Positions 2,289 through 35,458 of a stretch of 64,000 bases of DNA are shown here, in pieces. The DNA comes from Candidatus Kerfeldbacteria bacterium. Lineage in GTDB: Bacteria > Patescibacteriota > Patescibacteriia > SBBC01 > CAIJZX01. A model generated the notes under the pieces. The model had not been told where the DNA came from, made no database searches, and was given only the letters and a program-made list of their open reading frames with translations. Made by a program: the position numbers and the translations under genes. Position 1 is the first letter of the stretch, and the number at the start of each line of letters is the position of its first letter. The DNA is taken from NCBI GenBank assembly GCA_016193315.1, contig JACPSJ010000001.1:21935-85934 (forward strand), written 5' to 3'.

Positions 2289-3778
2289 AATATCTTGACT
2301 ACACCTTTCCCGGCATCAACTTCCACTAGATCTCCATCCTTGAGCACTTTTGTAGCCACTCGGGTGCCGATGACGCACGGCTTCTTCAACTCCCGGGCGA
2401 TGATTGCGGCGTGACAAAGCATACCGCCCTCATCAGTGATGATTGCCTTAGCCCGCTTCATCAGCGGCACGAACTCAGGTGAGGTCATCGAGGTGACGAG
2501 GATTTCACCATTTTGAAAGTACCGTCCTTCGTGAATCGGATTGGTGATCGAACGAACCCGGCCAGTAGCTTTTCCCGAAAAGGCGGTTGAGCCTTGGAGT
2601 AGTTTCGCTTGCGCGATTGCTTCCTCGTGCCAATCTTCTTTGCGCACGCCGCTCAAAACTTGAATTTGCTGGCCCACCTGTTTAATGGTAAAACCCTTCA
2701 CCTTGCGCCCGGCGACGATGCGGCGGATCGAATCGCCGCGAAGTCCAGCTATGATTTCCTCCCGCGACAGCCACCATAAATCATTGGGTTCGATACTGAG
2801 GCGTCGGCTGACCTCGTCGTACAGTGGGGCAGCGTGCTGCCAGTAATCGTGGATAAAGAGTGAATCGAGGTTGCGGTAACCCATCATAACCCGCAGCCAA
2901 TGGATGTGTTGACGGACTCGCGGATAGGTACGGAAGCGGGCGAGGATCTTTCGCACCGTCGTGGCTGCTTGCCGTTCTTGAGTTTGGAGAAGTCGTCGGG
3001 CTCGTGGCACCGATAATCCCCGCGACCGAAGAAATCGTTGTTCATAATCAGCCGGGGTAAACGGCCTATTCGTACGCTCGTTGAAAACGCTATGGCCGAA
3101 GTCGTACCATTGTTGGAAAACTACGTTCTGAATGGCCGCCAGGCGACGCTGGCGCTTGATTCGATGGAGACGATGGATCTGTTGCAGGCGGCGGAGGAAA
3201 GCCATGCGCTCGGCGATGAAAATGGAACGGATGCCGACTTGACATAACTGTCGGTAGACCCGCTCTTGTTCTTCGTCCGTGGCGTCAATCAGAACTTCGC
3301 CAATCTCCTGTCTGACAATCCGTGTCAGCAGGTTCACTAGGTCATAGACGATGTAGTATCCCGCTGAAGCAATCTTGCTAGCTAGATGCAGTACTTCGAA
3401 CTCGCGGCGGAGTTGGTTGGTGGACAACCCCAGGTAAAATTCAGGCCCCTTTCGGAAGATTGCATCGGTCATCCGCCTGAGTTGGCGGTACGAGTCGTGG
3501 AAATACCGATCGAGATATTGGAAATAGCGGTGCTCGCGCCGCAGGCGTTTCCAGATTTTTCCCAAAAAAGCATCTTCGACCTTCCGATCCCAATACAAAT
3601 AGACTTGCCGCTTGTTCGGCCCGTCCATCGATACGTACTTGACCCAATTAGGCAAGTTTCGGTACGGCGCGGCGCGCCAGTTGAGCAACGTCACCTGAAG
3701 CGTCTCCTGCTCATGGAGGACTTCAATGGTCCGAACCATTTTTTCGATGTAGCGCTGGTCGGAAAAGGGACGGTACAT
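2285..3778 (-). CDS. second PEP-utilizing mobile-domain protein with a ~390-aa N-terminal domain of unknown function
   Basis: C-terminal TSPEFVPLMKRAKAIITDEGGMLCHAAIIARELKKPCVIG; paralogous to the 1272..2288 gene. Confidence 0.7.
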   Translation of the reverse strand: MYRPFSDQRYIEKMVRTIEVLHEQETLQVTLLNWRAAPYRNLPNWVKYVSMDGPNKRQVYLYWDRKVEDAFLGKIWKRLRREHRYFQYLDRYFHDSYRQLRRMTDAIFRKGPEFYLGLSTNQLRREFEVLHLASKIASAGYYIVYDLVNLLTRIVRQEIGEVLIDATDEEQERVYRQLCQVGIRSIFIAERMAFLRRLQQIHRLHRIKRQRRLAAIQNVVFQQWYDFGHSVFNERTNRPFTPADYEQRFLRSRGLSVPRARRLLQTQERQAATTVRKILARFRTYPRVRQHIHWLRVMMGYRNLDSLFIHDYWQHAAPLYDEVSRRLSIEPNDLWWLSREEIIAGLRGDSIRRIVAGRKVKGFTIKQVGQQIQVLSGVRKEDWHEEAIAQAKLLQGSTAFSGKATGRVRSITNPIHEGRYFQNGEILVTSMTSPEFVPLMKRAKAIITDEGGMLCHAAIIARELKKPCVIGTRVATKVLKDGDLVEVDAGKGVVKIL

Positions 3779-19286: not shown

Positions 19287-19664
19287 ATGCCGGCTAAAAC
19301 ACCGAAGAACATTCTGATTGTTGAAGACGAAAAACCAACGGCCCAAGCTCTCCAACTGAAGCTGCAACGAAGCGGCTTTGCGGCGGCCATCGTCACTAAC
19401 GGTACCGACGCACTCGAAGCCTTGCTGCAACGCCGGTACTCACTAATCATTCTTGACCTCATCGTCCCGCAGCTAGACGGTTTCAGCTTTCTGGCGGCGA
19501 TGAAAGATCGCGGCGACCCGACGCCGGTCATCGTAGTCAGCAACCTCAGTCAGCCGGAAGATATGGCTCGGGCCGCCGAACTCGGCGCCAAGCATTTCTT
19601 CGTCAAGTCAGAAACAACCCTGGCGGCGATCGTCAACGCCATCAAGAAAACCCTGACGCCATGA
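19287..19664 (+). CDS. single-domain response regulator (CheY-like receiver)
   Basis: Receiver-domain motifs: ILIVEDE acidic pocket, phospho-acceptor IILDL(D), T/S at VIVVS, K at FFVKS. Confidence 0.85.
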   Translation: MPAKTPKNILIVEDEKPTAQALQLKLQRSGFAAAIVTNGTDALEALLQRRYSLIILDLIVPQLDGFSFLAAMKDRGDPTPVIVVSNLSQPEDMARAAELGAKHFFVKSETTLAAIVNAIKKTLTP

Positions 19665-21307
19665 AATTCGACGACGGCAAAATCAAGGACATCCTGCAAG
19701 GCGAAAATTACGTCTCGGCCGAAGATCTGGAAAAGGGGGCGGCCTCGGCGCGAGCCCACCGGGTCAGCCTAGTAGACGCACTGCTGGCCGAGAACCTGAT
19801 CACTAAGGATCTGCTGGGGCAAGCCATCGCCGAGTCGTTCGATGTCGCCTTCCTTGACTTGTCGGCGAACCCGCCGCCGCGTGATCTGGTGACGCGGTTG
19901 CCAGCCGCGATGGCCAAGCAAGAACGAGTCGTGCTGGTGGCCGAAGAACATCACCAGGTGAAGGTGGCAACTGACGACCCGGGACGGTCGACGCTAAAGA
20001 CGAAGCTGAAGAAACTCTGGCCCCGCAAGAAGCTGGTGGTCGTGTATGCGTTGCCAGAAGACATTGATGGCATACTGAAACACTATCGGCCGCCGCTCGG
20101 CAAACGGTTCCTAGCCATTCTCCAGCAACGGCAGCGGGTGGCGCCGGAGCTGATCGATGAAATCATCGAGGACGCAGTTACCAGCCGAGCCTCCGATATC
20201 CACATCGAGCCCCAAGGTCAGGAGATCGTTGTCCGCTTCCGGGTCGATGGCGTCCTCTATGAGGCCGGCCGGATCCCGAAGCGCTACTACGAGATGCTGC
20301 TCAACCGGATCAAGATCGAAGCCCGGTTACGGATCGATGAACATTTCGCCGCCCAAGACGGCGCTATTCGTCACGAACAACGGGATCGGGTGATCGATAT
20401 GCGGGTCTCGATCGTGCCAACCTACGATGGAGAAAAGGTGGCCATCCGGCTGTTGACCGACTATGTCCGCGAGTTCACGCTCGGGCGACTGGGGTTGTCC
20501 GAACGACACCAGCAGCAGTTACTCGAAGCCGCCCGCCAGCCATTCGGCATGATTCTAGTCACTGGCCCGACCGGGTCGGGCAAAACCACCTCGCTCTACG
20601 CGTTGATGAAAGTGCTAAACGCGCCGGAGATTAACATCACCACCATTGAGGACCCCATCGAATACCAGGTCACTGGCATCAACCAAATTCAGGCCAATCC
20701 GAATACCAACTTGACGTTCGCCCAAGGCTTACGGTCGATCATTCGCCAAGACCCAGATGTGGTCTTGGTCGGCGAGATACGTGACCAAGAGACAGCGGAA
20801 ATCGCCATTAACGCCGCTCTCACCGGCCACCTGTTGCTGTCCACTTTCCATGCCAACGACGCCGCCACAGTCATCCCTCGTTTGATCGAGATGGGTGTTG
20901 AGCCGTTCCTGGTCGCCTCGACCCTGGAACTGGTCATTGCCCAGCGTCTGGTCCGGACCATTTGCCGCGTTTGCCGAGTCAGCCAGCCGGTAAACCTCGA
21001 AGCGGTGGCCGAACTATACCCGCAAATCCGACGCTACCTGCGCGGGGCCAAGACGACGCTCTACCATGGCAAGGGATGCGCTGCTTGTAACGGCACCGGC
21101 TATCAAGGTCGGACTGGTCTATTCGAAGTCATTGCCATGACACCAGCGATGGAAGAACTAATTCTTCGCCGGCCAACGACGCAGATGGTCTGGCAACGAG
21201 CCGTCCAGCAAGGATCACGATCGCTGTTCGAGGATGGGATTGATAAAGTTAAAGCCGGGAAGACTACCCTCGAGGAGCTGCTGCGCGTCGCTCCGCCGCC
21301 GTCATAA
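19661..21307 (+). CDS. pilB: type IV pilus / type II secretion assembly ATPase (PilB/GspE family)
   Basis: GSPII_E N-terminal domain, Walker A GPTGSGKTT, Asp box and His box, tetracysteine CRVCRV...CAACNGTG. Confidence 0.9.
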   Translation: MKFDDGKIKDILQGENYVSAEDLEKGAASARAHRVSLVDALLAENLITKDLLGQAIAESFDVAFLDLSANPPPRDLVTRLPAAMAKQERVVLVAEEHHQVKVATDDPGRSTLKTKLKKLWPRKKLVVVYALPEDIDGILKHYRPPLGKRFLAILQQRQRVAPELIDEIIEDAVTSRASDIHIEPQGQEIVVRFRVDGVLYEAGRIPKRYYEMLLNRIKIEARLRIDEHFAAQDGAIRHEQRDRVIDMRVSIVPTYDGEKVAIRLLTDYVREFTLGRLGLSERHQQQLLEAARQPFGMILVTGPTGSGKTTSLYALMKVLNAPEINITTIEDPIEYQVTGINQIQANPNTNLTFAQGLRSIIRQDPDVVLVGEIRDQETAEIAINAALTGHLLLSTFHANDAATVIPRLIEMGVEPFLVASTLELVIAQRLVRTICRVCRVSQPVNLEAVAELYPQIRRYLRGAKTTLYHGKGCAACNGTGYQGRTGLFEVIAMTPAMEELILRRPTTQMVWQRAVQQGSRSLFEDGIDKVKAGKTTLEELLRVAPPPS

Positions 21308-21313
21308 TCAACC

Positions 21314-22900
21314 ATGAGGAAAAACCGCGCCAGCAACGACAGCGGTTCAGGCCGGCGGACGAAGACGCGGCATCACGACTGGCCGAGTCGCACGCGGGCA
21401 CCAGGCCGACTCGGATGGTGGCGGCGTGGCTGGGGCAAGGAGCGAGAGTATCTGATTGAGAACTTAGCGATGCTCGTCGCTTCGGGGCTGGACTTAGTGT
21501 TGGCTCTCCAGTCGCTGGTCGAAGAAACACGTTCGCCGGCTGCGCGTCGAGCCCTGGTGGCTGTCCGGAGCGAGGTGGAGACCGGCCAACCGCTGTGGCG
21601 AGCGCTCGCCGGCAGCCGAGCTTTTTCAGACTACGTCATTTCGTTGATCCGCGTGGGTGAAGAAAGCGGTCGGCTGGCCGAACATCTTCAGGTGGTGGCC
21701 GAACAACTAGCCAAGGACCGGCAGTTCGCCGAGCGGGTGCGCTCGGCCATGATGTATCCGCTGATTGTATTATCGCTCACCATTGTGGTCGGCACGGGCG
21801 TGGCTTGGTTTATCTTGCCTCGTCTGGCCACAATTTTCACCCAACTCCACCGCGACCTGCCGGTGGTGACAAGGGTAATGATCGCCAGCGGTCAGTTCCT
21901 AGGGACATTTGGGTGGTTGGCGGTGCCCTTGTTCCTGTTGGCGGTGGTTGGTGTGGGGTACCTCGTCTTTGTCCATCCCAAAACAAAATTCATCGGCGAA
22001 GGGCTGCTCGATCGAATTCCTCCCCTGCGTCGCCTGACGCAGGAGGTGGAATTGGCACGGGCGGGGTACCTGTTTGGACACTTGCTGGAGGCGGGCGTGC
22101 CGATCATCGAGTCGCTGGAATCGCTCAGCCAGGCGACGACCACTCGTAAATACCGACAGTTTTACCAGCACCTGCGAGGCAGCATCGCCGATGGGCATTC
22201 CTTCCGCCATAGCTTCCGCGTCATTCCGGCCGCCAACGCCATCGTCCCAACGCCCATCCAACAGATGATTGTGGCCGGCGAGCAATCCGGTCGCCTAGCC
22301 TCGACGTGGCTCGGTATTGGCCAGCGCTTCGAAGCCAAGACGGAAACGACGGCCAAAAACCTAGCGGTCGTCATCGAGCCCGGTTTGCTTGTCGTCGTTT
22401 GGTTGGGCGTGGTCTTTGTGGCGGTGGCCGTCATTCTGCCGATCTACTCGCTGATCGGCAGCTTGGATGAGCCGCCGGCCGTGAATGGCACGTCTCGGAA
22501 CGTCACGTCTCAGCCGCCGACCGCTGAGGCCAATACCAATACCGCGCCGCCGGCCGACGATAACGTCAATGTTACGGTCAATGCCCCGAGTGAGCCCGAA
22601 CCCACACCCAACCCGCCGGTCGGCGATTCGAATGAAAATACGAATCAAAATGTGACTCCGGAGACGCCGACGACTCCGACGGCCGGCAACCAACTGACGA
22701 TTAACCAGACCAGCACTGGCTATCTTAATGTCCGACAAGGGCCGGGCCTCGGATACACGGTCCTCACCCGGGCCAAGCCTGGCCAGACGTACCCCTGGCT
22801 CCGTCTCGAAGCCGGCTGGTATGAAATCGAATTGGCCGAGGGTCAAACCGGTTGGGTTATCGGCCGGTACGTAACCGTGGCATCGAGTCAGGAACCTTGA
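21314..22900 (+). CDS. pilC: PilC/GspF-type platform protein fused to a C-terminal Pro/Thr-rich linker and an SH3b-like domain
   Basis: Two T2SSF repeats with 3 TM segments (residues ~45-370), a PT-rich low-complexity stretch, then GYLNVRQGPGLGYTVLTRAKPGQTYPWLRLEAGWYEIELAEGQTGWVIGRYV, which resembles a bacterial SH3 domain. Confidence 0.8.
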   Translation: MRKNRASNDSGSGRRTKTRHHDWPSRTRAPGRLGWWRRGWGKEREYLIENLAMLVASGLDLVLALQSLVEETRSPAARRALVAVRSEVETGQPLWRALAGSRAFSDYVISLIRVGEESGRLAEHLQVVAEQLAKDRQFAERVRSAMMYPLIVLSLTIVVGTGVAWFILPRLATIFTQLHRDLPVVTRVMIASGQFLGTFGWLAVPLFLLAVVGVGYLVFVHPKTKFIGEGLLDRIPPLRRLTQEVELARAGYLFGHLLEAGVPIIESLESLSQATTTRKYRQFYQHLRGSIADGHSFRHSFRVIPAANAIVPTPIQQMIVAGEQSGRLASTWLGIGQRFEAKTETTAKNLAVVIEPGLLVVVWLGVVFVAVAVILPIYSLIGSLDEPPAVNGTSRNVTSQPPTAEANTNTAPPADDNVNVTVNAPSEPEPTPNPPVGDSNENTNQNVTPETPTTPTAGNQLTINQTSTGYLNVRQGPGLGYTVLTRAKPGQTYPWLRLEAGWYEIELAEGQTGWVIGRYVTVASSQEP

Positions 22901-22902
22901 GT

Positions 22903-23343
22903 ATGCTGAAAGCTATGCGGTCAGGAATTACTCTGATCGAGGTCCTGTTAAGTCTCACCGTGATCGGGTTGCTCGTCGGCCTGGCCGCACCGGTCATGCA
23001 GTCCCTCCAAGCGCGTAACGACCTCGACGTGGCCGCCAACATCACCGCGCAAACGCTGCGGCGAGCGCAAGCCTTAGCTGTGGCCGTGGACGGGGACATG
23101 ATGTGGGGAGTTGTCCTCCAACCAGGGTCGGTAGTTTTGTTTCGCGGGTCGTCGTATGCGGCTCGCGAGCCGACTTTCGACGAGCAGTATGATCTCGCCC
23201 CGGCCATTACGCCGAGCGGGTTGACGGAGGTCGTATTTGCCAAGCTGACCGGTCGACCACAGGCGGTCGGCACGATCACCCTGGCTAATCCGGAGACGAG
23301 CCGGACGCTGACGGTCAACGAACTGGGGATGATTGAATACTAG
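22903..23343 (+). CDS. prepilin-type minor pilin / pseudopilin
   Basis: Class III signal MLKAMRSG|ITLIEVLLSLTVIGLL with Glu at +5. Confidence 0.7.
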   Translation: MLKAMRSGITLIEVLLSLTVIGLLVGLAAPVMQSLQARNDLDVAANITAQTLRRAQALAVAVDGDMMWGVVLQPGSVVLFRGSSYAAREPTFDEQYDLAPAITPSGLTEVVFAKLTGRPQAVGTITLANPETSRTLTVNELGMIEY

Positions 23344-23496
23344 CCTTGGCGACCCAGACGTGCTATGCCCCGGCACACGTTACCTGACCGACCCACCGCA
23401 GGTCAGATCAAACACTCCGGCTTTATCAGACACCTCGCTTTTAGTGTGATGCGACGCTCGCGAGTAAAGAGGAGAATCAACCAGCAGTCCAATACT

Positions 23497-25227
23497 ATGG
23501 TCAGGCACAGACGGCAAAATGGCTCTAGCGCGGGGTTTTCGGTGGTTGAAGTTTTGCTGGGCGTCAGCGTCTTTAGCTTATTAGTGACAGTTTTCGTTGG
23601 GGCTTACATCTACGGCCGCGAAAGCTCGCTTTTGGCCGGCCACCGTGGCCGGGCCGCGTTGGTGGCCGAGGAAGCAATGGAGGGCGTTCGCAGCATTCGT
23701 GACGGCAGTTTCGTTGACCTGACGGCCGGTGATCATGGCGTCCTCCCGATCGGCGGCCAGTGGCAGTTCTTCGGGACTAGTGTCCTGAATGATATCTTCA
23801 CCCAGCAGGTGACGATCAACGACGTCAGTCCGACGGCCAAATCAGCTGTCGCTCAAGCCACCTGGACGCAGAATCTGCAGCGGCCAGGATCCGTCAGTCT
23901 GAGCACTCGTTTGACCGACTGGCGGCGAACTGTCCGGCGAGGTGGGATGCTTATTTATGGCGATTACTCTGGGAATGACGACGTTATTCAGTACCGCCTG
24001 TTCAGCCGCGCCGGCACCTGGGGCGCCGTACAAACGGTTCCAGATTTCGGTGTACCGCTGCACCGACCGACACGCCGAGTCGAACTGTATTCCAACCCTT
24101 CGTCACGTGATGAGAAGGTGTTGGTAACGAAACATTTTGGCGGCGGGGCGGGAGATGACCTTTATCTGTATGCCCAAGTTTGGAACGGCACGACTTGGGG
24201 CAATGCCACTCAACTCGCCACTCGGAAAGACACGAACTTCCCGAGCAGTCGCGAGTTCGACGGCGACTATCTCGACGACGGTCGGTTTCTCTTGGTCTAC
24301 GGCGATGACACCAGAATCCCAAAATTCAGATTCTGGGACGGTACGGCGTGGTCATCAGCCGCCCCAACCGTTGATATCCGCGGCCGACCAGTCTGGATTG
24401 TCGTTCGGTCCCGCTCAGGGACGAACGAAGCCATGGTCGTCATTCTCGACGACCAGCGGGATACGAACACCATCTACTGGAACGGCAGCAGCTGGCTCGG
24501 CCCGGTTGAACACGGCAATAACGGGCCGGGAGCGGAATTCGACATGGTCAACTTCGTTTGGCGGCCGACCAACCCGACGCTCGGCGCGCTCGTCTACAAC
24601 GAAGGGAATGACAACCATCCAAACATCAAAGTGTGGGACAATGGAATTTGGGGCCCCAGCGTGGAAAACATCAACCTGGGGAAATCTATCCGCGCGATGC
24701 AGACCACCAGCGATCCGACGAGTGGCGATTGGCTACTCGGCGTCAAGGACAACGGCGATCGTATCAACAGCTTACTGAGTGACACCACGCCATCGTGGCA
24801 TACATTGACCAACGGACAACTGGCGGTCAAGACCGACAACGGTCCGCAGCGGAGTTTTTCGCTGGCCTTTGAAACCAACGCCGGCCAGCGGGCCATCGCC
24901 GTCTACGCCGATGGGCCGAACGCTGATGCCCTGGGGATTCCTAAGTACCGGACGTATGACCCGGCTACGAAAACCTGGGGTGCCGCCGGGAACTTGGCCG
25001 ATCTTGGTGGTCGGGCCGCAGCGCTCGAGAGCGTGGGGTTAATTCCCGACCCAGGAGGGGAGGATATCATGACGCTGATGGCCACCACCAACCAGCAGCT
25101 GTGGACGGTGCGGTGGAACGGTGCGACGCACGCTTTTTACTCGACCGGCGACGAGGCGCAGATTCGTCAAGCCACGAACGGATCTAGCGACGAAGATTTT
25201 TGGTTTGATTATGCCTGGGACAATTAA
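23497..25227 (+). CDS. large prepilin-like protein (577 aa) with a PilY1-like C-terminal repeat (putative beta-propeller) domain
   Basis: Leader MVRHRRQNGSSAG|FSVVEVLLGVSVF. The C-terminal half carries ~6 repeats of a W(N/D)G..W motif (VWNGTTWGNA, FWDGTAWSSA, YWNGSSWLGP, VWDNGIWGPS, KTWGAAGN, VRWNGATHAF). Confidence 0.65.
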   Translation: MVRHRRQNGSSAGFSVVEVLLGVSVFSLLVTVFVGAYIYGRESSLLAGHRGRAALVAEEAMEGVRSIRDGSFVDLTAGDHGVLPIGGQWQFFGTSVLNDIFTQQVTINDVSPTAKSAVAQATWTQNLQRPGSVSLSTRLTDWRRTVRRGGMLIYGDYSGNDDVIQYRLFSRAGTWGAVQTVPDFGVPLHRPTRRVELYSNPSSRDEKVLVTKHFGGGAGDDLYLYAQVWNGTTWGNATQLATRKDTNFPSSREFDGDYLDDGRFLLVYGDDTRIPKFRFWDGTAWSSAAPTVDIRGRPVWIVVRSRSGTNEAMVVILDDQRDTNTIYWNGSSWLGPVEHGNNGPGAEFDMVNFVWRPTNPTLGALVYNEGNDNHPNIKVWDNGIWGPSVENINLGKSIRAMQTTSDPTSGDWLLGVKDNGDRINSLLSDTTPSWHTLTNGQLAVKTDNGPQRSFSLAFETNAGQRAIAVYADGPNADALGIPKYRTYDPATKTWGAAGNLADLGGRAAALESVGLIPDPGGEDIMTLMATTNQQLWTVRWNGATHAFYSTGDEAQIRQATNGSSDEDFWFDYAWDN

Positions 25228-25273
25228 CTACACTCGGCCGCGACCCAGGACCCAGCCTGACAAGGTTTCAGGA

Positions 25274-25777
25274 TTGAAATCCCGGCCCAGCTTTACCCTG
25301 ATTGAACTCCTCCTCTACATCTCGCTGACCGCCATCATTACCTTCTCGGTCAGCTCCTTTCTGGTCGTGACTATCGATGCGCGGGTAAAAAACCAAACGG
25401 TAGCCGAGGTCGAGCAACAGGGTCAGACGGCGATGGTCATGATGACGCAGGCGATCAGGAACGCTCAAGGCATCAACAGCCCCGCCCTGGGAGAGGTCAC
25501 TAACACATTGTCGCTCGACGTGATCGAGGTGAGCAAAGACCCGACGACATTCACTTTGGCTGCCGGACAGCTGTGGGTGCAGGAAGGTGTAGCCCCGGCA
25601 GTGGCCCTGACGAATACCCGCATCCGGGTCATGGACATGTCGTTCATAGACTTATCACGCTCGAGCCAATCGCGCTCCGTCCGTATCAACCTCGTTCTCA
25701 ACTACTTCAATACTAGCGGCCGCAACATCCACACCTACACCAAGGTCTTTCAAGCCGCGGCTAACCCACGACCATGA
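25274..25777 (+). CDS. prepilin-like minor pilin, probably TTG-initiated
   Basis: TTG at 25274 gives MKSRPS|FTLIELLLYISL, a short leader with Glu+5. The in-frame ATG at 25211 would overlap the upstream gene by 17 nt. Confidence 0.5.
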   Translation: MKSRPSFTLIELLLYISLTAIITFSVSSFLVVTIDARVKNQTVAEVEQQGQTAMVMMTQAIRNAQGINSPALGEVTNTLSLDVIEVSKDPTTFTLAAGQLWVQEGVAPAVALTNTRIRVMDMSFIDLSRSSQSRSVRINLVLNYFNTSGRNIHTYTKVFQAAANPRP

Positions 25778-26172
25778 ACCAACGACGAAAGGGCATGATT
25801 ACGCTGATCAGCATCCTCGTCCTGGCCGCGGTCGGCGGCGCGGTGGCGGTGTCACTACTGCTGCTCGGGGTGGATGCCACCAGGACGAGTTCCAGCCGCG
25901 AGTTCTCGGCCGCGGCCCGGGCCCTGGCCAACGCCTGTGTCGAGACAGCCCTCGAGGAAATTCGTTCTTATACTCCCTTCACCACCGCCGGCACAAACCT
26001 GAACATTGGTTCTGGCACCTGCACCTACGTCGTGGCAAACACTGGCGGCTTCCGTCGCACCATCCAGGCGAGCGGGAGCATGGGGTCAGTCAGCCGCAAG
26101 GTCTTGGTCACCGTTGACCGAATCAACCCTACTATTCGGGTCACGTCTTGGCAGGAAGTGGGGGATTTCTAG
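25774..26172 (+). CDS. prepilin-like minor pilin (PilX/ComGG-like)
   Basis: MNQRRKG|MITLISILVLAAVGGAVAV; 4-bp overlap with the upstream pilin. Confidence 0.6.
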   Translation: MNQRRKGMITLISILVLAAVGGAVAVSLLLLGVDATRTSSSREFSAAARALANACVETALEEIRSYTPFTTAGTNLNIGSGTCTYVVANTGGFRRTIQASGSMGSVSRKVLVTVDRINPTIRVTSWQEVGDF

Positions 26173-26308: not shown

Positions 26309-26818
26309 ATGAAACTAACCATGCCGACGCTTTCGTTACAAACCCGCCGCCATCTCCCCCGCGGGCGGGCAGGACGGGCCGGTTTTACGCTGCTCGAAAT
26401 TCTACTCGTCGTGGCGGCCATCGGTATTTTAGCGGGGATTGTCATCATAGCCATTAATCCTACCAAACAGCTCGGTGACACTCGGAACGCCCAGCGCAAA
26501 ACGGACGTCAATACGATCCTCAATGCGGTGTACCAGTACGCGGTTGACAGCGGTTCAATCCCATCGACGATCACGGACACCGCTACCGAGATTTGCGCCA
26601 CCGGCGTGGCCGCCGCTGATTGTACCACCGCCGGGCTGATTGATCTCTCAGTTCTGACCACGGCCGAGAAATACTTAGTCTCCATGCCCCAGGATCCGCA
26701 GTGTAGCACCGTTTGCGCGACCGACGGCGTCGACTACCAAATCCTCAAGACGGCCAATAACCGCGTGACGGTCAGCGCGCCGGGAGCTGAAGGAACGACC
26801 GTTTCGGTCACCCGATAA
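26309..26818 (+). CDS. pilA: type IVa major pilin candidate
   Basis: ...RAGRAG|FTLLEILLVVAAIGILAGIVIIAINP classical pilin N-terminus; Cys pairs in the C-terminal part; own promoter. Confidence 0.75.
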   Translation: MKLTMPTLSLQTRRHLPRGRAGRAGFTLLEILLVVAAIGILAGIVIIAINPTKQLGDTRNAQRKTDVNTILNAVYQYAVDSGSIPSTITDTATEICATGVAAADCTTAGLIDLSVLTTAEKYLVSMPQDPQCSTVCATDGVDYQILKTANNRVTVSAPGAEGTTVSVTR

Positions 26819-26884: not shown

Positions 26885-29800
26885 TTGCATGCCATGTTTC
26901 CCTCCACCACCGTCCACCATCCTCCGTCATCAACACTTTCCGCGCCTCAGGTAAGCCGCCAACCGTTGACCGGCCGACAAGTGATCGTGCGCTTAGCCAG
27001 CGCCGCGGTTTCTTATCTGGGCTTGTTTACCTTGATCGGCTGGGCGGGGGAACTCGAAACATTCAAGAGCGTCTTACCCGGGACGTTACCAACGAACCCG
27101 TTGCTGGCCGTGTCCTTAATCTTTCTCGGCGGCGCGATGTGGCTAGCGGAAGATCGTTCCCGGGCCGAGCTGCAGCGGCTAAGCGGCGTTTTGTCTGGCA
27201 CAGTGGTGGCCGTGGCGATACTGCGGCTGGTGGCCTGGCTGGGGCTCGATCTGGGTATCGATCAAGCCATCTTCCCCAGAGCGGTTAGCTCGTATGTCCC
27301 GCCCATCCGGATCGGCATCGCCACCGCGGTTGGTCTCCTCACGGGGTCGACGGCGCTGGCCTTCCTCCGCCTCGGCCACCAACGGTGGTTGCGGCCGGCG
27401 CAGTGGTTATCGTTCCTAACGGCAACATTGGCCAGCCTGGCCCTGATCGGACATCTTTACGGCGTCACCGCACCCGTACCGATCGGTCTAGTTTCCGCTG
27501 TCGGCCTGTTGATTGTTGGTCTCGGCCTGCTGGCCAGCGATCCACTCCGCCAGCTGCCAGGCTTAGGTCTGGCCACGAAAGTCAGTCTAGCCGTCGGATT
27601 CTTCGGCCTGGTCAGCATGGCCGTCGCCAGCTACTCGGTCTACGGCAAGACGATTCGTGATCTCGAGCAGTCGCTCGGCCAGCAACAAGAAGTCGCGGCG
27701 GCTAACACGATGCAGAAGATTGACCGTTTGCTGGAAGAGGCGTTGGAGGATATCGAATTGATCAGCACTGATAACGCCCTAGTCGCGTCCTTGTCTAGTT
27801 CGCCAACAGACACAGACGTTAGCTCTCGTCTCAGCACGCTGGCCGGCGCCACTGGGCCGTGGTCGATGTTGAGTGTCGTCGGATCGGACTTTCAGCTGGT
27901 GTCCTCGACGAGCCCTTCGTTTTCATCAACCTCGACGGCCCTCACGACCGAAGGCCGGCGTGTCTTGACGTCGGCGCGGCTGCGATTGGTATCTTACAGC
28001 GATGTCATCCCACCCACCCGCCAGCGCTCACCAACCGTTATCCTGGCCGCGCCAGTCTTGGCCACTGCTCCTGATCGCCCCCTCCTCGGGGTGGCGGTCG
28101 GCGAGATAGATTGGTCCGGGGTGACCAAGACGTTACGCGACGTCCGTGATGGCACGGTCCAGCTCTACGACCGCCGCGGGATCATGGTGGCCACGAATGA
28201 TGTCGGTCGGCAGCGCTTGGCGTGGCGAGCAAATTTTCGCGGCCACCGGGCGGTGGATCAAGCGCTGCGCGGGCGAGTCGGGTCAGAGATTGGTTCGGGG
28301 CTAGTCCCGGAGTCGATTGGTCAAGCCCCACCAACGCTCGCGGTAGGCGAATTAACTGCCGGTTCGGAAGCAACGTCACAACAAACACTCGTTTCCTACG
28401 TGCCGCAGCGTGGGTACCTCGAGTATCGCGGCAGTGGCTGGGCTTTGACCCTGGAGACGAAAACCGGCTCCGTGGTGACGGCGGCGCTGCAGACCGCTTC
28501 CCAAGTAGCTCTGACCACTGCGGTTTTAGTCAGCCTACTGATTGTGTCCTTGCTACTCGTGCTGCGGACGTTCCTTCATCCCGTGGCCCGACTGACCGCC
28601 GGCGCCCGCGGCTTAGCGGCTGGCAATTTTGCTCAGCGAGTGGCGGCCGACACTGATGACGAACTCGGCCAGCTAGCGGCGGCATTTAACACCATGGCCA
28701 CCCGCCTCCAGGAGCTCTACCGACGACTTGATGATAAAGTCCATCGGCGGACGGCACAGCTGGTGGAGAAAGTAGAGTTCATCTCCCGCCAAAATCTCCT
28801 GCTACAGGAAGCACGTCGAGCGATGTCAAAGGTGGTCCAAGAATTACAAACCGACAAGGCGAGGATCGCCGAAGAGCAGGCCAAAGACCAAGCCATGCTA
28901 GCCAGCATCGGCGATGGGGTGGCCATCACCGATGCCGAGGGGAAGGTAGTAATGTTGAATCAGTCCGCGGAACGACTGCTGGGGTGGACCGTCGCCGAAG
29001 CGATCGGCCAGCGTTACGATCAGGTGGCCCCGCTGGTTGACGACCGTGGTCGAGAAGTCCCGCTCCTGGAACGGCATTTCTACCAATCGCTGCAAACCGG
29101 CGCGGTCACGTCGTTACCAGTCATCGCTTCCCGCTCATTCTATCGGCGGAGAGATGGGACCAAGTTTCCGATGGCGGGCATTACCACCCCGATCCATCTC
29201 CACCATCGAATCATCGGCGCCATTACCGTCTTCCGCGACATTACCCAGGAAAAAGCTGTTGATCGCGCCAAGACGGAATTTGTGTCCCTCGTCTCACATC
29301 AACTCCGGACCCCGATTTCATCAATCAATTGGCTGACCGAGCTACTCCTGACCGGTGAAATTGGTCGCCTGACTCGAGACCAACGTCAAGTGGTCGGCGA
29401 AATCGCTTCCGCCAGCCACCGCGTGATCGAGATGGTCACGACGTTCCTCAACGCGACACGATTAGAACTCGGTACGCTGGTGGTCGAACCGGAGCCGGTC
29501 GACGTCAGCCGCCTGGTGACATCGATTTTCCAGGAGCTGGAGCCGGTCGTCAAGCACAAGCGTTTGCAGATGGAACAACGCCAGGTCGGTCCAGGGACGC
29601 CGGTGCCGGCCGATCCGACCCTGATGCGCATCATCGTTCAGAATTTGCTCACCAACGCCGTCGTCTACTCCCGCCCCGGTGGCAAGGTTCGGGTGACCGT
29701 AACGAACCGTAGTCCCCAGGCCAGGCCGGCGCCGGACGCCCAGGGAGTGATGATCTTGGAAGTAGCCGATAATGGCATCGGCATCCCGACCGAACAACAG

Positions 29801-30127
29801 CCCCAAATCTTCGATAAGCTTTTTCGGGCAGATAACGCTCGGACGGCTGAACCGAACGGTACCGGTCTCGGATTATACATCGTCAAGTCTATCCTCGACC
29901 ACGTCGGCGGTACCATCTCGTTCACCTCTCCAGCCGGGCGGGGCACAACCTTTACGGTCACCTTGCCGCTGAGCGGCATGAAGCGACAGGCCGGCACCAA
30001 GCCGCTCCAGATCAGTCCGCGCAAACAAGTATCTCTGGACACGAGTAACAAAAAACCCCGATCCCCGCGATCCCCAATTGAATCGGGGCGGGGAGATCGG
30101 AGACAGCCTGTTGGCATCAGGCGGTAA
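26885..30127 (+). CDS. sensor histidine kinase (1080 aa): N-terminal multi-TM sensor, ~300-aa extracytoplasmic domain, HAMP, PAS, HisKA, HATPase_c
   Basis: ~7 N-terminal TM helices, HAMP (LTAGARGLAAGNFAQRVAADTDDELGQLAAAFNTMATRLQ), PAS (ASIGDGVAITDAEGKVVMLNQSAERLLGWT), H-box EFVSLVSHQLRTPISSI, N/G boxes (LLTNAVVYS, GTGLGLYIV). Confidence 0.85.
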   Translation: MHAMFPSTTVHHPPSSTLSAPQVSRQPLTGRQVIVRLASAAVSYLGLFTLIGWAGELETFKSVLPGTLPTNPLLAVSLIFLGGAMWLAEDRSRAELQRLSGVLSGTVVAVAILRLVAWLGLDLGIDQAIFPRAVSSYVPPIRIGIATAVGLLTGSTALAFLRLGHQRWLRPAQWLSFLTATLASLALIGHLYGVTAPVPIGLVSAVGLLIVGLGLLASDPLRQLPGLGLATKVSLAVGFFGLVSMAVASYSVYGKTIRDLEQSLGQQQEVAAANTMQKIDRLLEEALEDIELISTDNALVASLSSSPTDTDVSSRLSTLAGATGPWSMLSVVGSDFQLVSSTSPSFSSTSTALTTEGRRVLTSARLRLVSYSDVIPPTRQRSPTVILAAPVLATAPDRPLLGVAVGEIDWSGVTKTLRDVRDGTVQLYDRRGIMVATNDVGRQRLAWRANFRGHRAVDQALRGRVGSEIGSGLVPESIGQAPPTLAVGELTAGSEATSQQTLVSYVPQRGYLEYRGSGWALTLETKTGSVVTAALQTASQVALTTAVLVSLLIVSLLLVLRTFLHPVARLTAGARGLAAGNFAQRVAADTDDELGQLAAAFNTMATRLQELYRRLDDKVHRRTAQLVEKVEFISRQNLLLQEARRAMSKVVQELQTDKARIAEEQAKDQAMLASIGDGVAITDAEGKVVMLNQSAERLLGWTVAEAIGQRYDQVAPLVDDRGREVPLLERHFYQSLQTGAVTSLPVIASRSFYRRRDGTKFPMAGITTPIHLHHRIIGAITVFRDITQEKAVDRAKTEFVSLVSHQLRTPISSINWLTELLLTGEIGRLTRDQRQVVGEIASASHRVIEMVTTFLNATRLELGTLVVEPEPVDVSRLVTSIFQELEPVVKHKRLQMEQRQVGPGTPVPADPTLMRIIVQNLLTNAVVYSRPGGKVRVTVTNRSPQARPAPDAQGVMILEVADNGIGIPTEQQPQIFDKLFRADNARTAEPNGTGLGLYIVKSILDHVGGTISFTSPAGRGTTFTVTLPLSGMKRQAGTKPLQISPRKQVSLDTSNKKPRSPRSPIESGRGDRRQPVGIRR

Positions 30128-31976
30128 TGGTGCATTTCATGTGGTGGATGAACGTCAGTAACCGACGGGTGATTTCCTGTCCCGGGCCGACGGCTTGACG
30201 TGCGTGCGGATTGAGGCCGACGGTGTCCTGGTGTTTCTTCCGCTTCTCGAGCAAGACCCGCGTCCGGACTAAGAACTGCAGCGCCGCGCGGAACTGCCAA
30301 GGATCGTAGGCGCCCCCCAAGGTTCCTTGGACCCGCTGCCGCACCTGGTTGACGGCTTCATATCGGTCTTTCACGGCCAGCTGGTCGCGCTTGCCGAGCT
30401 GGTACAAACCGTGGATGAGGATGGCCCGGGCGTGGCAGTGGTCGATGTCAGGGGGTAGGCAGTCGCGGACGTCGAATAGCTCCTCGGCTTCGGCGAAGTT
30501 ACGAATTGCCGCCCCGTTGGTCGGTGCGACGGCGGTAGTCTTGCTTTCCAGCGGAGGTTCCGTTTCCTCGGGAGCTAAAGCCGCCTCCAGTGCCTGACCG
30601 AGCCAGTAATCGCCGATAGCCCGTCGGGGATTTGTCTCTTCCTCTCGGAAGCTGTGCAGATACTGCCTGAACCGCTCGAGTTGTGCCGGTGGGATGTCCT
30701 CTCGGCGAATCAGCGCCAGCCGGCCGAGTAAGCGCTGACGGTAATCGGGGCTCTGTGGAGATAGCGCTTCGCGCCGCGGGTGGTCCTGGCGCTCAGCCCA
30801 GCCTCGAACGTCCCACATCGCCCGCACGCGAACTTCCAACGCGCAGCTTGGATCGTTGGCTGTTCGCCAGAGCTGGTTTGCTTCCCCGGTCATTGCCCGA
30901 TCTCGAAGCTGAGCGTCGACCTGCGGCAAGAGCCGGTGTTCGAGGTCATCGACCAGCCGGCGCACCACCCCGGCCTGGCGCGCCTCCTTTCGATTCTTCG
31001 TCAGCTCGACCGCGGCGGCGCTTAGCAGCCGGGCGTAGTGCTGACGATACCATTCGATCCGCGGTGACAGATTCAATAGCCACAAGCTCGGCCGCCTGAC
31101 TCGGCGTCCGATCGCCCGGTGTTGACGGTAGAGAATGTACAGATAGCGGTAGGCGCGCCGGGTTTGACGGAAGTGGTAGCCGATCGCCACGACGATGATC
31201 GTCAGCCCGACGGCGATGAGGATCCTCGGTCGGGTGGCTTCAAGCAGGTGGGCGAAGTGGTAGTCGATGGTGCCGGTGGCTTTTGTCAGCGTTAGTCCGG
31301 GCGAGAAGCCGGGGAACATCGATCCCGCCCGGGCCGCCAGCCGCTGGTAAAGATGTTCGAGATTCGCCAGGTTGTCGGCGCGTTGGTCTGACTCCGGGTA
31401 GCGAATCCAGAGCTGCGGGTACTCTTTGTACCCCAGGCTTCTCTCTTTCTTCGCGTCGATGCCGGCGTTCGGTCCGACACCGAGCACCTCGTGCGGCACA
31501 AACATCGTCGTCAAGATGCCCGGCCCCCGCCACCAGTGAAACTGGACGTAGCCGAGCGGCTTGCCGCGGAGCGGATCGAAAGCAGTGATCACGCTATCGG
31601 ATAGGCTTCTCCAACGGAGGCCGAGGGCCCGCTCATCTGCTTTCTTGCCGAGGCTTCCCAAGCGGTGGTTTTCGAGATAGACTTTGATGCCGGTCGCGCG
31701 CCGGAACTCACCGACGCCGGAGTCAAGAACGTATTCGGCGTTGCCGGCGTGATTGGGGCACCGCCACTTGTGGAGCGGCGGCCAGCAGGAGAAGAGGACG
31801 AGATACAGTCCCAGCAGAAGCGGCACCAAGATGACTGGCCAGCCGTAGTTCCGCTGCGACCACGAGAGTTGCGTTGGCGGTTGGGCCATGACACGAATCT
31901 CCTTTCGGAGTTGGGGGTGGGATGTCAAACAGCGTTCAAGATCTGCGGCAGCAAGGCCTTGTAGCATTTTTTCCAA
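30117..31976 (-). CDS. hypothetical membrane protein (619 aa), 2 TM helices
   Basis: Only long ORF in this 1.9-kb very GC-rich stretch; plus-strand ORFs are all under 140 aa; no recognisable domain; overlaps the HK stop by 11 nt. Confidence 0.4.
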   Translation of the reverse strand: MEKMLQGLAAADLERCLTSHPQLRKEIRVMAQPPTQLSWSQRNYGWPVILVPLLLGLYLVLFSCWPPLHKWRCPNHAGNAEYVLDSGVGEFRRATGIKVYLENHRLGSLGKKADERALGLRWRSLSDSVITAFDPLRGKPLGYVQFHWWRGPGILTTMFVPHEVLGVGPNAGIDAKKERSLGYKEYPQLWIRYPESDQRADNLANLEHLYQRLAARAGSMFPGFSPGLTLTKATGTIDYHFAHLLEATRPRILIAVGLTIIVVAIGYHFRQTRRAYRYLYILYRQHRAIGRRVRRPSLWLLNLSPRIEWYRQHYARLLSAAAVELTKNRKEARQAGVVRRLVDDLEHRLLPQVDAQLRDRAMTGEANQLWRTANDPSCALEVRVRAMWDVRGWAERQDHPRREALSPQSPDYRQRLLGRLALIRREDIPPAQLERFRQYLHSFREEETNPRRAIGDYWLGQALEAALAPEETEPPLESKTTAVAPTNGAAIRNFAEAEELFDVRDCLPPDIDHCHARAILIHGLYQLGKRDQLAVKDRYEAVNQVRQRVQGTLGGAYDPWQFRAALQFLVRTRVLLEKRKKHQDTVGLNPHARQAVGPGQEITRRLLTFIHHMKCTITA

Positions 31977-34519: not shown

Positions 34520-35458
34520 TTATTGGCACACCGGCGGCGATTCGTAACTGACCGATTCATAGGTTAGGCCCAGACTAGCGATTAAGCCAGCTTTTTCTAA
34601 CTCGCCATCGCACTTATGATCGCCCGAAGGTCGTTTCCCAACGTTCCCGACGCAGTAGTACTGCATTTCGGTGCCGGTCCAGGGCCAATACTGGTCTCCG
34701 CACATGACCAGTGGACCGTCATCCGGCCAAAATCCTCCTCCGGCACAGTTACAGCAAGTCCCATAATAGGTGCTATTTGACGAGAAGGAATGACTAGTTT
34801 CAGTGGTGTTGCCATTTGGGGAGCGGTAGCGGCGCAATTGACCCTTAATTGCTTTGCTGGAGTTCAAGAACGCTCGGCTGCCGCTTTTTTCCAGTTCAAT
34901 CTGAATGACATAGTGTTGGAAGTTGTCGAGTTCGCCGCTCACCAGATAGTGCCAGTGCTGCCGGTGCCAAGTGCTGCTCGGCCCACCCTCATATCTGGGC
35001 GTACCCGGAATTATTTTGTTAACAATCGGGTCATCGGGGATGGAACCGATAAGGTAGGGCTGTAAGATATCTTCCAACTGTTTCCATCCGCTCGGTAAGT
35101 CGCCCCCGGAGGCGGAAGAGATACACTCGGTATGAGGGTAAGTACCGTGGGCCGTATAGTACCGTTCGAGAGCCAGCTGAATCTCGGCCGCATCGGCTGC
35201 CCGCTGGGCATTCCTCGCTCGCACCCGCGCGCCGGAGGCGTAGTTGATGCCGATCAGGCTAATAATGCCGAGCACGCCGATGGTGATGACTATTTCGATC
35301 AAGGTGAAACCGAAAATTCGCCGTACTTTCTTGGTCGGAAGGTGTGGGGTTTGTAGAAGGTTGGACGGAGCCCGGCGGCTCGACCGGGCGACTGGGGGTG
35401 AAGCGGTTATTGCCGGCCGGGTGGCGGTGGGCTTAGGGTCTCGTGGTGTCACTAGCAA
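34520..35458 (-). CDS. prepilin-type N-terminal domain protein with a Cys-rich C-terminal domain
   Basis: ...KKVRRIFG|[16 protein letters not shown] prepilin motif. The C-terminus has a CCNC...C...C...C cluster. Start unclear: the conceptual leader is ~49 aa and the ORF overlaps the copA 3' end. Confidence 0.6.

What the first reader, a model, noticed from the sequence alone, without database searches (positions are those of the whole stretch)
23497..25227. 577-aa pilin with PilY1-like repeat domain fused directly behind a class III signal peptide
The protein starts with a canonical prepilin leader and hydrophobic helix (G|FSVVEVLL). It continues into ~6 tandem ~45-aa repeats, each with a W(N/D)G..W core (VWNGTTWGNA, FWDGTAWSSA, YWNGSSWLGP, VWDNGIWGPS...). 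That pattern suggests beta-propeller blades. In canonical systems the tip adhesin PilY1 (beta-propeller) is a separate non-pilin protein. Here propeller and pilin would be one polypeptide, which suggests a pilus-tip adhesin built into a minor pilin.
Basis: partly seen in the sequence, partly recalled or inferred. Interest (0 to 1): 0.6.

Follow-up and report, generated by a model that had tools for sequence, protein, structure and literature searches.

The report
Pilus subunit carrying a built-in propeller
This gene from an ultrasmall (Patescibacteria) bacterium encodes a type IV pilus minor subunit with an eight-bladed beta-propeller fused to its end, most likely a binding head at the pilus tip; the design is real and conserved, but it is a variant of known "modular pilins", not a relative of PilY1.

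Summary

No PilY1 relationship was found: there is no Pfam PF05567 hit and no PDB sequence hit, and PilY1 is absent from the top fold matches. Foldseek ranks PLL-type lectins highest.

The gene sits in a conserved Patescibacteria operon: response regulator, PilB, PilC, H-like pilin, this gene, J-like pilin, K-like pilin without E5, major pilin. That order is kept in about 30 loci.

The propeller has no Pfam model. It is nevertheless widespread (20,255 clusters at 50% identity) and also occurs in giant surface proteins.

Modular pilins are known (Raynaud 2021), and a propeller-bearing pilin, TM7x PilX2, is already tied to host binding. I read this as a new variant of a known kind. The most likely function is a tip-displayed adhesin, possibly glycan-binding. 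That function is inferred, not shown.

The parts
23497..25227 (+). Whole gene: modular minor pilin, 576 aa plus stop codon. Alternative in-frame ATG starts lie at 23365 and 23449.
   Evidence: 33 homologues, about 560-600 aa when full length. AF2 pLDDT 89.3, pTM 0.75.
23497..23535 (+). Leader peptide (residues 1-13) ending in Gly13. Predicted prepilin-peptidase cleavage site G13|F14.
   Evidence: Read directly from the sequence. G13 is at least 90% conserved and E18 is invariant. N_methyl matches 22/30 members.
23536..23925 (+). Pilin module (residues 14-143): alpha-1 helix 16-70 plus an antiparallel beta-sheet 78-140.
23926..23940 (+). Short variable linker (residues 144-148) between the pilin module and the propeller.
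   Evidence: Lowest conservation of any region. pLDDT dips to 70 in the block of residues 141-150.
23941..25224 (+). Eight-bladed beta-propeller (residues 149-576). Blade units: 149-203, 204-261, 262-309, 310-359, 360-409, 410-463, 464-521, 522-576. It ends in the conserved motif DFWFD(F/Y)AWD.
19287..19664 (+). Response regulator receiver, first gene of the conserved operon.
   Evidence: Pfam Response_reg 3e-21. Synteny.
19661..21307 (+). Pilus assembly ATPase of the PilB/GspE type, with an MshEN N-terminal domain.
   Evidence: Pfam T2SSE 3e-121 and MshEN 2e-14.
21314..22900 (+). Platform protein PilC/GspF with an extra C-terminal linker and an SH3_3 domain.
   Evidence: Pfam T2SSF 4e-42 and SH3_3 1.3e-11.
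22903..23343 (+). GspH-like minor pilin. Leader MLKAMRSG|ITLIE.
   Evidence: NCBIfam GspH 5.5e-5, Pfam N_methyl and GspH weak. Conserved immediately upstream of the target gene in nearly all loci.
25211..25777 (+). GspJ/PilW-position minor pilin. N-terminus S|FTLIELLLY.
   Evidence: Weak NCBIfam hits to HpsC and to a prepilin-peptidase-dependent protein. Conserved immediately downstream.
25774..26172 (+). GspK/PilX-position minor pilin lacking Glu5. N-terminus G|MITLIS.
   Evidence: Read from the sequence. All 20 extracted orthologues show hydrophobic pilin-like N-termini without Glu at +5.
26309..26818 (+). Probable major pilin. N-terminus G|FTLLE; GspG-like.
   Evidence: NCBIfam GspG 2e-9 and IV_pilin_GFxxxE 1.7e-5. 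It is the most conserved pilin across loci, at up to 67% identity.
26885..30127 (+). Sensor histidine kinase (dCache-HAMP-PAS-HisKA-HATPase) following the pilin genes.
   Evidence: Pfam. Histidine kinases are also adjacent in homologous loci.

Best explanation
The gene encodes a modular type IV minor pilin.

Proposed mechanism:
1. A prepilin peptidase removes the 13-residue leader at G13|F14.
2. The GspI/PilV-like pilin module, with Glu5 on a hydrophobic alpha-1 helix, joins the three neighbouring minor pilins (H-like, J-like and an E5-less K-like). Together they form the complex that primes the pilus, and they end up at its tip.
3. The acidic, Trp-rich eight-bladed propeller of about 47 kDa hangs from this module on a linker of about 5-9 residues. 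The pilus therefore presents it at the tip as a binding head.
4. The likely target is a surface component, plausibly a glycan, of the host or partner cell on which these episymbiotic bacteria depend.

Functionally it would do in one polypeptide what PilY1 plus the minor pilins do in Proteobacteria. It is not homologous to PilY1.

Shown by computation here: the signal peptide, the pilin fold, the 8-bladed propeller, the operon context, the family conservation, and the reuse of the propeller in non-pilin surface proteins.

Inferred only: cleavage, tip location, adhesion and the nature of the ligand.
For: - Class III motif and its conservation.
- The operon order RR, PilB, PilC, H-like, target, J-like, K-like, major pilin is kept in about 30 loci from Levy-, Davies-, Woese-, Magasanik- and other Patescibacteria MAGs.
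- K-like orthologues lack E5, as GspK and PilX do.
- The same propeller occurs in 0.9-7.9 kaa proteins that begin with signal-peptide or TM N-termini. One of them (P0096) also carries five Laminin_G_3 lectin-type stretches plus Ig and fn3 domains, so the propeller is an extracellular module.
- The domain is acidic (median pI 4.8) with 11-22 Trp per domain.
- Precedent 1: TM7x PilX2 is a minor pilin with a C-terminal propeller. Its deletion halves host binding, and its best lectin fold match is also CV39L (PMC11623550).
- Precedent 2: bulky modular pilins are argued to be tip-located (PMC8179133).
Against: - No experiment bears on this family.
- The propeller is at least as conserved as the pilin module (30-50% identity across classes). 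That is unusual for a host-specific adhesin and fits a conserved ligand or a structural role.
- No prepilin peptidase, PilT or PilMNO gene lies in the window.
- The window protein's own N_methyl score is below threshold (E = 0.19).
Confidence: 0.6

Rival explanations
1. Structural or priming role. The propeller mainly caps and nucleates the pilus, or blocks its retraction, as proposed for the PilY1 C-terminal domain with the minor pilins in Myxococcus. On this reading it is a fixed part of the assembly machinery, not a ligand-specific adhesin.
For: - Strict conservation as the second gene of the minor-pilin cluster in about 30 loci.
- The propeller is as conserved as the pilin module, with units 1-3 and the C-terminal strand most conserved.
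- No retraction ATPase lies in the operon.
Against: - The same propeller module is used in many non-pilin giant surface proteins, where priming is irrelevant.
- TM7x PilX2 is dispensable for filament extrusion but needed for binding (PMC11623550).
- This role is not mutually exclusive with adhesion.
Confidence: 0.2
2. Tip-displayed enzyme. The propeller is a glycoside hydrolase, lyase or sialidase-like catalytic domain that is delivered to the host cell wall by the pilus.
For: - Fold matches include sialidase NanC, rhamnose-glucuronate lyase, a GH family protein and tetrathionate hydrolase.
- Blade 2 carries family-invariant or near-invariant polar residues that are not repeated in every blade: R204, E206, K207 and H213.
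Against: - No enzyme family reaches any sequence threshold.
- These fold matches rank below lectins and scaffolds, or have poor TM-scores (0.3).
- No catalytic constellation was identified.
Confidence: 0.1
3. DNA receptor of a competence-type pilus. A large minor pilin captures extracellular DNA, as ComZ does in Thermus, to feed nucleotide-auxotrophic Patescibacteria.
For: - Competence pilins of Thermus appear among the fold matches of the pilin module.
- Weak ComGE, ComGD and ComGF hits occur for the cluster's pilins.
- From general knowledge, Patescibacteria depend on scavenged nucleotides.
Against: - The propeller is acidic in all 30 aligned members (pI 4.1-6.6, median 4.8), which is unfavourable for DNA binding.
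- TM7x T4P-2 mutants kept normal competence.
Confidence: 0.05
4. Not a pilin at all. On this reading it is a type II membrane-anchored surface propeller whose N-terminal helix is an uncleaved anchor, and the G|F..E pattern is coincidental.
For: - The window protein's N_methyl score is sub-threshold (E = 0.19).
- NCBI annotated a start that removes the cleavage site.
- No PilD gene is in the window.
Against: - G-1 and E+5 are conserved across the family.
- The modelled head is a pilin fold matching GspI and GspK.
- The position between other pilin genes, downstream of PilB and PilC, is invariant.
Confidence: 0.05

Closest known systems
Nanosynbacter lyticus TM7x PilX2 (Saccharibacteria T4P-2 minor pilin; PMC11623550)
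   Same: - Same phylum-level group.
- A pilin N-terminal module followed by a C-terminal beta-propeller.
- Its best lectin-type fold match is the same PLL/CV39L family.
- It is proposed to be the tip adhesin, and its deletion halves host binding.
   Different: - PilX2 is reported as 7-bladed with RCC1 repeats and without a predicted PilD signal peptide.
- It is encoded in a pilin-only locus away from pilB and pilC.
- The protein here is 8-bladed and has no RCC1 or any other Pfam repeat match.
- It has a canonical G|F...E5 site.
- It occupies the GspI/PilV slot directly after pilB, pilC and the H-like pilin gene.
- Direct sequence comparison with PilX2 was not possible with these tools.
Modular type IV pilins (S. 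sanguinis PilB with vWA and PilC with lectin; Raynaud et al. 2021, PMC8179133)
   Same: - A small pilin module is joined by a short linker to a bulky module that also exists outside pilus biology.
- Tip display and a direct role in adhesion are predicted.
- Many such proteins were already listed from Candidate Phyla Radiation (CPR, now Patescibacteria) genomes.
   Different: - The grafted module here is an 8-bladed propeller without a database signature, so InterPro-based surveys would have missed it.
- No functional data exist for this family.
PilY1 / PilC tip adhesin of T4aP (Pseudomonas, Neisseria, Myxococcus)
   Same: - A beta-propeller associated with the four core minor pilins at the pilus tip.
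- The analogous proposed roles are adhesion and priming.
   Different: - PilY1 is a separate, non-pilin protein with a 7-bladed PF05567 propeller and calcium sites.
- No sequence or top-ranking fold similarity to it was found here.
- In this protein the propeller is covalently part of a minor pilin.
T2SS minor pseudopilins GspI/XcpV/EpsI (with GspJ and GspK) and the T4aP FimU-PilV-PilW-PilX set
   Same: - Best fold matches of the pilin module.
- The H-I-J-K gene order is the same.
- The K-position protein lacks Glu5.
   Different: - There is no sequence-level match to the T2SSI family.
- GspI is about 120 aa with no extra domain.
- Patescibacteria have no outer membrane and therefore no T2SS.
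PLL-family propeller lectins (Photorhabdus PLL/PHL, BP39L, CV39L)
   Same: - Trp-rich bacterial beta-propellers.
   Different: - They have seven blades rather than eight and share only 10-13% identity.
- They are soluble oligomeric lectins.
- No shared sequence motif was demonstrated, and binding-site residues were not mapped.

Membership tests
Type IV pilin / class III signal peptide protein | A short positively charged leader ending in Gly, followed by F/M at +1, Glu at +5 and about 20 hydrophobic residues. | tested here: met
   MVRHRRQNGSSAG|FSVVEVLLGVSVFSLLVTVFVG. E18 is invariant and G13 is at least 90% conserved. N_methyl matches 22/30 family members, best 7e-6, but the window protein itself scores only E = 0.19.
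Type IV pilin / class III signal peptide protein | Pilin fold: a long N-terminal alpha-1 helix packed against an antiparallel beta-sheet. | tested here: met
Type IV pilin / class III signal peptide protein | Cleavage and N-methylation by a prepilin peptidase (PilD). | not testable with these tools
   No Peptidase_A24 gene lies in the 64-kb window. The rest of the genome was not available.
Modular pilin (sensu Raynaud et al. 2021) | A pilin module plus an extra domain that also exists outside pilus proteins. | tested here: met
   The propeller is found in proteins of up to 7.9 kaa that begin with signal-peptide or TM N-termini. One of them (P0096) also carries Laminin_G_3, Ig and fn3 domains.
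Modular pilin (sensu Raynaud et al. 2021) | Encoded with type IV pilus machinery. | tested here: met
   PilB and PilC lie upstream, with four further pilin genes around the target. This arrangement is conserved in about 30 loci.
PilY1 / PilC (PF05567, IPR008707) | Sequence membership of the PilY1 C-terminal propeller family. | tested here: not met
   No PF05567 hit at E <= 1 in any of 30 members, nor at E <= 10 for the propeller alone. The family profile did not hit the PilY1 chains in PDB at E <= 1.
PilY1 / PilC (PF05567, IPR008707) | A seven-bladed modified propeller, with PilY1 as the closest fold. | tested here: not met
PilY1 / PilC (PF05567, IPR008707) | A non-pilin protein secreted with a Sec-type signal peptide. 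| tested here: not met
   The protein starts with a class III signal peptide and a pilin module.
GspI / PilV-type core minor pilin | Second position in an H-I-J-K minor-pilin gene cluster, with an E5-less K-type partner. | tested here: met
   Gene order and N-terminal motifs across loci.
GspI / PilV-type core minor pilin | Sequence match to the T2SSI family or to PilV family models. | tested here: not met
   No such Pfam or NCBIfam hit was found; only ComGE at E = 0.026. The similarity is structural only.
PLL-type propeller lectins | Sequence family membership and a seven-bladed architecture. | tested here: not met
   There is no Pfam hit. Identity is 10-13% and the blade count is eight rather than seven.
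PLL-type propeller lectins | Inter-blade Trp-lined sugar pockets and carbohydrate binding. | not testable with these tools
The conserved W-x-G-x-x-W hairpins are compatible with such pockets but are not diagnostic.
RCC1-repeat propeller (as reported for TM7x PilX2) | RCC1 repeat signature (PF00415 / PF13540). | tested here: not met
   No RCC1 hit in any of 30 members at E <= 1.

The most novel reading that the evidence does not exclude
This 8-bladed W-x-G-x-x-W propeller is an undescribed extracellular recognition module that is widespread in Patescibacteria. In many lineages it has been welded onto the GspI/PilV-equivalent core minor pilin, so the pilus-priming complex itself carries the host-recognition head. 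That would be a one-polypeptide functional replacement of PilY1. The same module on giant surface proteins would target the same class of host ligand. If so, it would give a conserved handle for finding the hosts and receptors of uncultivated Microgenomates- and Kerfeldbacteria-type episymbionts.
Probability: 0.35. Interest if true: 0.6.

Novelty: new variant of a known kind. Interest (0 to 1): 0.42.

Why it matters
Patescibacteria are mostly uncultivated episymbionts. How they find and hold their hosts is largely unknown outside a few Saccharibacteria.

This work identifies a conserved, operon-embedded minor pilin that carries a large binding-type domain. It is a concrete candidate for the host-contact point of the pilus in several other classes, including Kerfeld-, Levy-, Woese-, Davies- and Magasanikbacteria.

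It also shows that an unannotated propeller family is a common extracellular module. The family comprises about 20,000 clusters at 50% identity and has no Pfam model beyond a short DUF2510-like hairpin. It deserves a domain definition.

The work corrects the database annotation of this gene, which is listed as a 'hypothetical protein' with a start codon that removes the prepilin cleavage site.

It does not overturn current models. It extends the known modular-pilin principle.

Tried and rejected
- **PilY1 homology.** Rejected: no PF05567 hit, no PDB sequence hit, and PilY1 absent from the top fold matches.
- **Misassigned start making the pilin segment an artefact.** Rejected: the N-terminus is conserved in homologues, and all candidate ATG starts keep the G|F site.
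- **'About 6 repeats of 45 aa'.** Replaced by 8 units arranged as 4 double-blades.
- **Exact look-up of the NCBI version of the protein (P0001).** Not on record.
- **The precomputed Pfam tag PF26696.** It turned out to be a 'faint' PTL_trimer hint and could not be reproduced in the local Pfam copy even at E <= 10. I disregarded it.
- **Names and taxonomy for the giant propeller proteins.** Nearly all are unnamed; one is labelled as an Elusimicrobia MAG.
- **DNA-receptor idea.** Disfavoured by the acidic pI.
- **A second propeller gene in the window.** None found.
- **Literature on this exact family.** Only the TM7x paper links pilins, propellers and CPR. The giant-gene preprint was not relevant.
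- **Mapping conserved residues onto propeller faces.** Not possible, because model coordinates are not exposed.

Full report
**What is there**

The window is from a Patescibacteria genome. The 100%-identical database protein is 'hypothetical protein HYY50_00225 [Candidatus Kerfeldbacteria bacterium]'.

On the + strand an ORF ends at 25227. From ATG 23497 it encodes 576 aa. The N-terminus, MVRHRRQNGSSAG|FSVVEVLLGVSVFSLLVTVFVGAYIYG, is a textbook class III signal peptide: basic leader, Gly at -1, Phe at +1, Glu at +5, and a long hydrophobic helix.

The start codon is uncertain:
- Other in-frame ATGs lie at 23365 and 23449.
- NCBI chose a GTG 15 codons downstream, which deletes the cleavage site.
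- No candidate start has a well-spaced Shine-Dalgarno sequence.
- All ATG choices keep the G|F site, so the processed protein would be identical.

33 homologues (about 560-600 aa when full length) share a GFSLVE-type N-terminus. E18 is invariant and G13 is at least 90% conserved. Pfam N_methyl matches 22 of 30 aligned members.

**Structure**

AlphaFold2 with the family alignment gives a confident model (pLDDT 89.3, pTM 0.75). It has three parts: helix 16-70, a beta-sheet head at 78-140, and an all-beta domain at 150-574. pLDDT dips at residues 141-150, between the head and that domain.

*C-terminal domain.* It is a beta-propeller.
- Profile self-alignment shows strong internal duplication at offsets of about 114, 213 and 316 residues (E 3e-31, 1e-21, 1e-7), with a weaker period of about 51 residues.
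- This means four double-blade units, or eight blades of 48-58 residues.
- The DSSP string gives about four strands per unit.
- Two designed 8-fold propellers are covered almost completely (309/320 and 294/318 residues).

It is exact in four blades and degenerate in the other four, so the estimate of 'about 6 repeats of 45 aa' was too low.

**Not PilY1**

- No member matches Pfam PF05567, or any propeller repeat family. The only hit is the 35-residue DUF2510 hairpin motif, in 22 of 30 members.
- The family profile finds nothing in PDB sequences except pilin N-termini.
- Foldseek ranks the Photorhabdus PLL/PHL lectins first among compact matches (E about 2e-9, TM 0.65-0.70, 10-13% identity).

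These similarities are generic for propellers. They are a lead, not proof of lectin activity.

**Context**

The gene sits in a compact operon:

| Position | Gene product | Coordinates |
|---|---|---|
| 1 | Response regulator | 19287-19664 |
| 2 | PilB-type ATPase with MshEN domain | 19661-21307 |
| 3 | PilC-type platform protein | 21314-22900 |
| 4 | GspH-like pilin | 22903-23343 |
| 5 | Target gene | 23497-25227 |
| 6 | J-position pilin | 25211-25777 |
| 7 | K-position pilin lacking Glu5 | 25774-26172 |
| 8 | GspG-like major pilin | 26309-26818 |
| 9 | Large sensor kinase | 26885-30127 |

The same order recurs in essentially all of about 30 homologous loci. These were retrieved by exact look-up and by a scan of species-representative genomes, and they come from Levy-, Davies-, Woese-, Magasanik- and other Patescibacteria MAGs. 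Across these loci the K-position proteins uniformly lack Glu5, the hallmark of GspK and PilX.

The target therefore occupies the GspI/PilV slot of a canonical H-I-J-K core minor-pilin set. This agrees with its fold matches.

**Distribution of the propeller**

An exhaustive profile search of 1.84 billion cluster representatives found:
- 20,255 proteins at E <= 1e-3,
- 6,607 at E <= 1e-10,
- 1,583 at E <= 1e-30.

Among the best 149 hits, at least 59 have a strict class III N-terminus and a median length of 596 aa. Some larger pilins carry additional domains.

The rest are fragments or proteins of 0.9-7.9 kaa. The long ones inspected begin with signal-peptide or TM-like N-termini, and some carry up to 21 matched stretches. 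One (P0096) combines the propeller with five Laminin_G_3 stretches, an Ig domain and an fn3 domain.

So the propeller is a mobile extracellular module without a database model. This satisfies the definition of a modular pilin.

**Properties relevant to function**

- The propeller is acidic in all 30 aligned members (median pI 4.8) and Trp-rich (11-22 Trp). This argues against DNA binding and is compatible with carbohydrate binding.
- It is at least as conserved as the pilin module. Units 1-3 and the C-terminal DFWFDxAWD strand are the most conserved, and units 5 and 7 the least.
- That pattern fits a conserved ligand or a structural interface better than a rapidly diversifying host-specific adhesin.

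**Comparison with what is known**

Modular pilins, a pilin module plus a grafted functional module that is probably tip-exposed, were defined by Raynaud et al. 2021. They listed more than 1,200 examples, many from Candidate Phyla Radiation (CPR, now Patescibacteria) genomes. They also drew the parallel with PilY1 (PMC8179133).

In Saccharibacteria strain TM7x, the minor pilin PilX2 carries a C-terminal heptabladed RCC1-type propeller. Its deletion halves host binding without abolishing the filament, and its best lectin-like fold match is CV39L (PMC11623550).

The present family differs from PilX2 in four ways:
- eight blades rather than seven;
- no RCC1 signature;
- a canonical PilD site;
- a fixed position in the pilB-pilC-minor-pilin operon.

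The principle is the same. A full-text search found no paper that describes this family.

**Verdict**

The PilY1 homology and the repeat count are not.

The most likely mechanism is as follows. After prepilin processing, the GspI-like module assembles with the H-, J- and K-like pilins into the priming complex. The propeller, on its very short linker, is carried to the pilus tip as a binding head, possibly for host cell-wall glycans.

Processing, tip location and ligand are all inferences. A purely structural or priming role is the main rival (0.2). Tip-displayed enzyme, DNA receptor and non-pilin membrane anchor are minor rivals.

I rate the finding as a new variant of a known kind. Interest is moderate (0.42).

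Noticed in passing
window 21314-22900 (+): The PilC/GspF platform protein is 528 aa, against about 355 aa in most homologous loci. It carries a Pro/Thr/Asn-rich low-complexity linker and a C-terminal bacterial SH3_3 domain (E = 1.3e-11), possibly an extracytoplasmic cell-wall-binding extension of the pilus platform. The homologous match in locus L030 also runs unusually long.
   Followed up: partly
window 34520-35458 (-): An orphan pilin-like ORF has a canonical G|[15 protein letters not shown]-terminus and a Cys-rich C-terminal region of about 200 aa. It has no Pfam match and lies away from the pilus operon, next to thioredoxin and VKOR genes.
   Followed up: partly
window 23497-23541 (+): The public annotation of this protein (561 aa, 'hypothetical protein') starts at a GTG 15 codons downstream. 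That start removes the leader and the G|F cleavage site, so the database entry hides the pilin nature of the protein.
   Followed up: yes
window 24724-24885 (+), residues 410-463: Most family members have a conserved Cys pair in blade unit 6 (consensus FLxCxKD...DINC), presumably a disulfide. The window protein has no cysteine at all in the propeller (L and S at those positions).
   Followed up: partly
window 49631-52852 (-): A 1073-aa probable surface protein carries VWA, SpaA-like prealbumin-fold and DUF11/DUF7507/CARDB repeats. It is another candidate adhesin in the same window.
   Followed up: no
window 19661-21307 (+), 19287-19664 (+) and 26885-30127 (+): The pilus ATPase carries an MshEN N-terminal domain, which binds c-di-GMP in MshE (from general knowledge). 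The operon is bracketed by a receiver-only response regulator and a 1080-aa dCache-HAMP-PAS histidine kinase. Kinase and regulator genes also flank the operon in other loci, which suggests signal-controlled piliation.
   Followed up: partly
window 334-3778 (-): Three consecutive ORFs carry pieces of a pyruvate-phosphate-dikinase / PEP-utilising enzyme: PPDK_N, then two ORFs each ending in a PEP-utilizers mobile domain. This could be a split or duplicated gene arrangement.
   Followed up: no
window 30117-31976 (-): A 619-aa ORF convergent with the histidine kinase has no Pfam match at E <= 0.1.
   Followed up: no
proteins P0034 (6719 aa) and P0035 (7926 aa), from the representative library: Two giant proteins match the propeller profile in 21 stretches each, making them tandem arrays of this unannotated propeller. 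Their origin is unknown (ENA metagenome contigs).
   Followed up: partly
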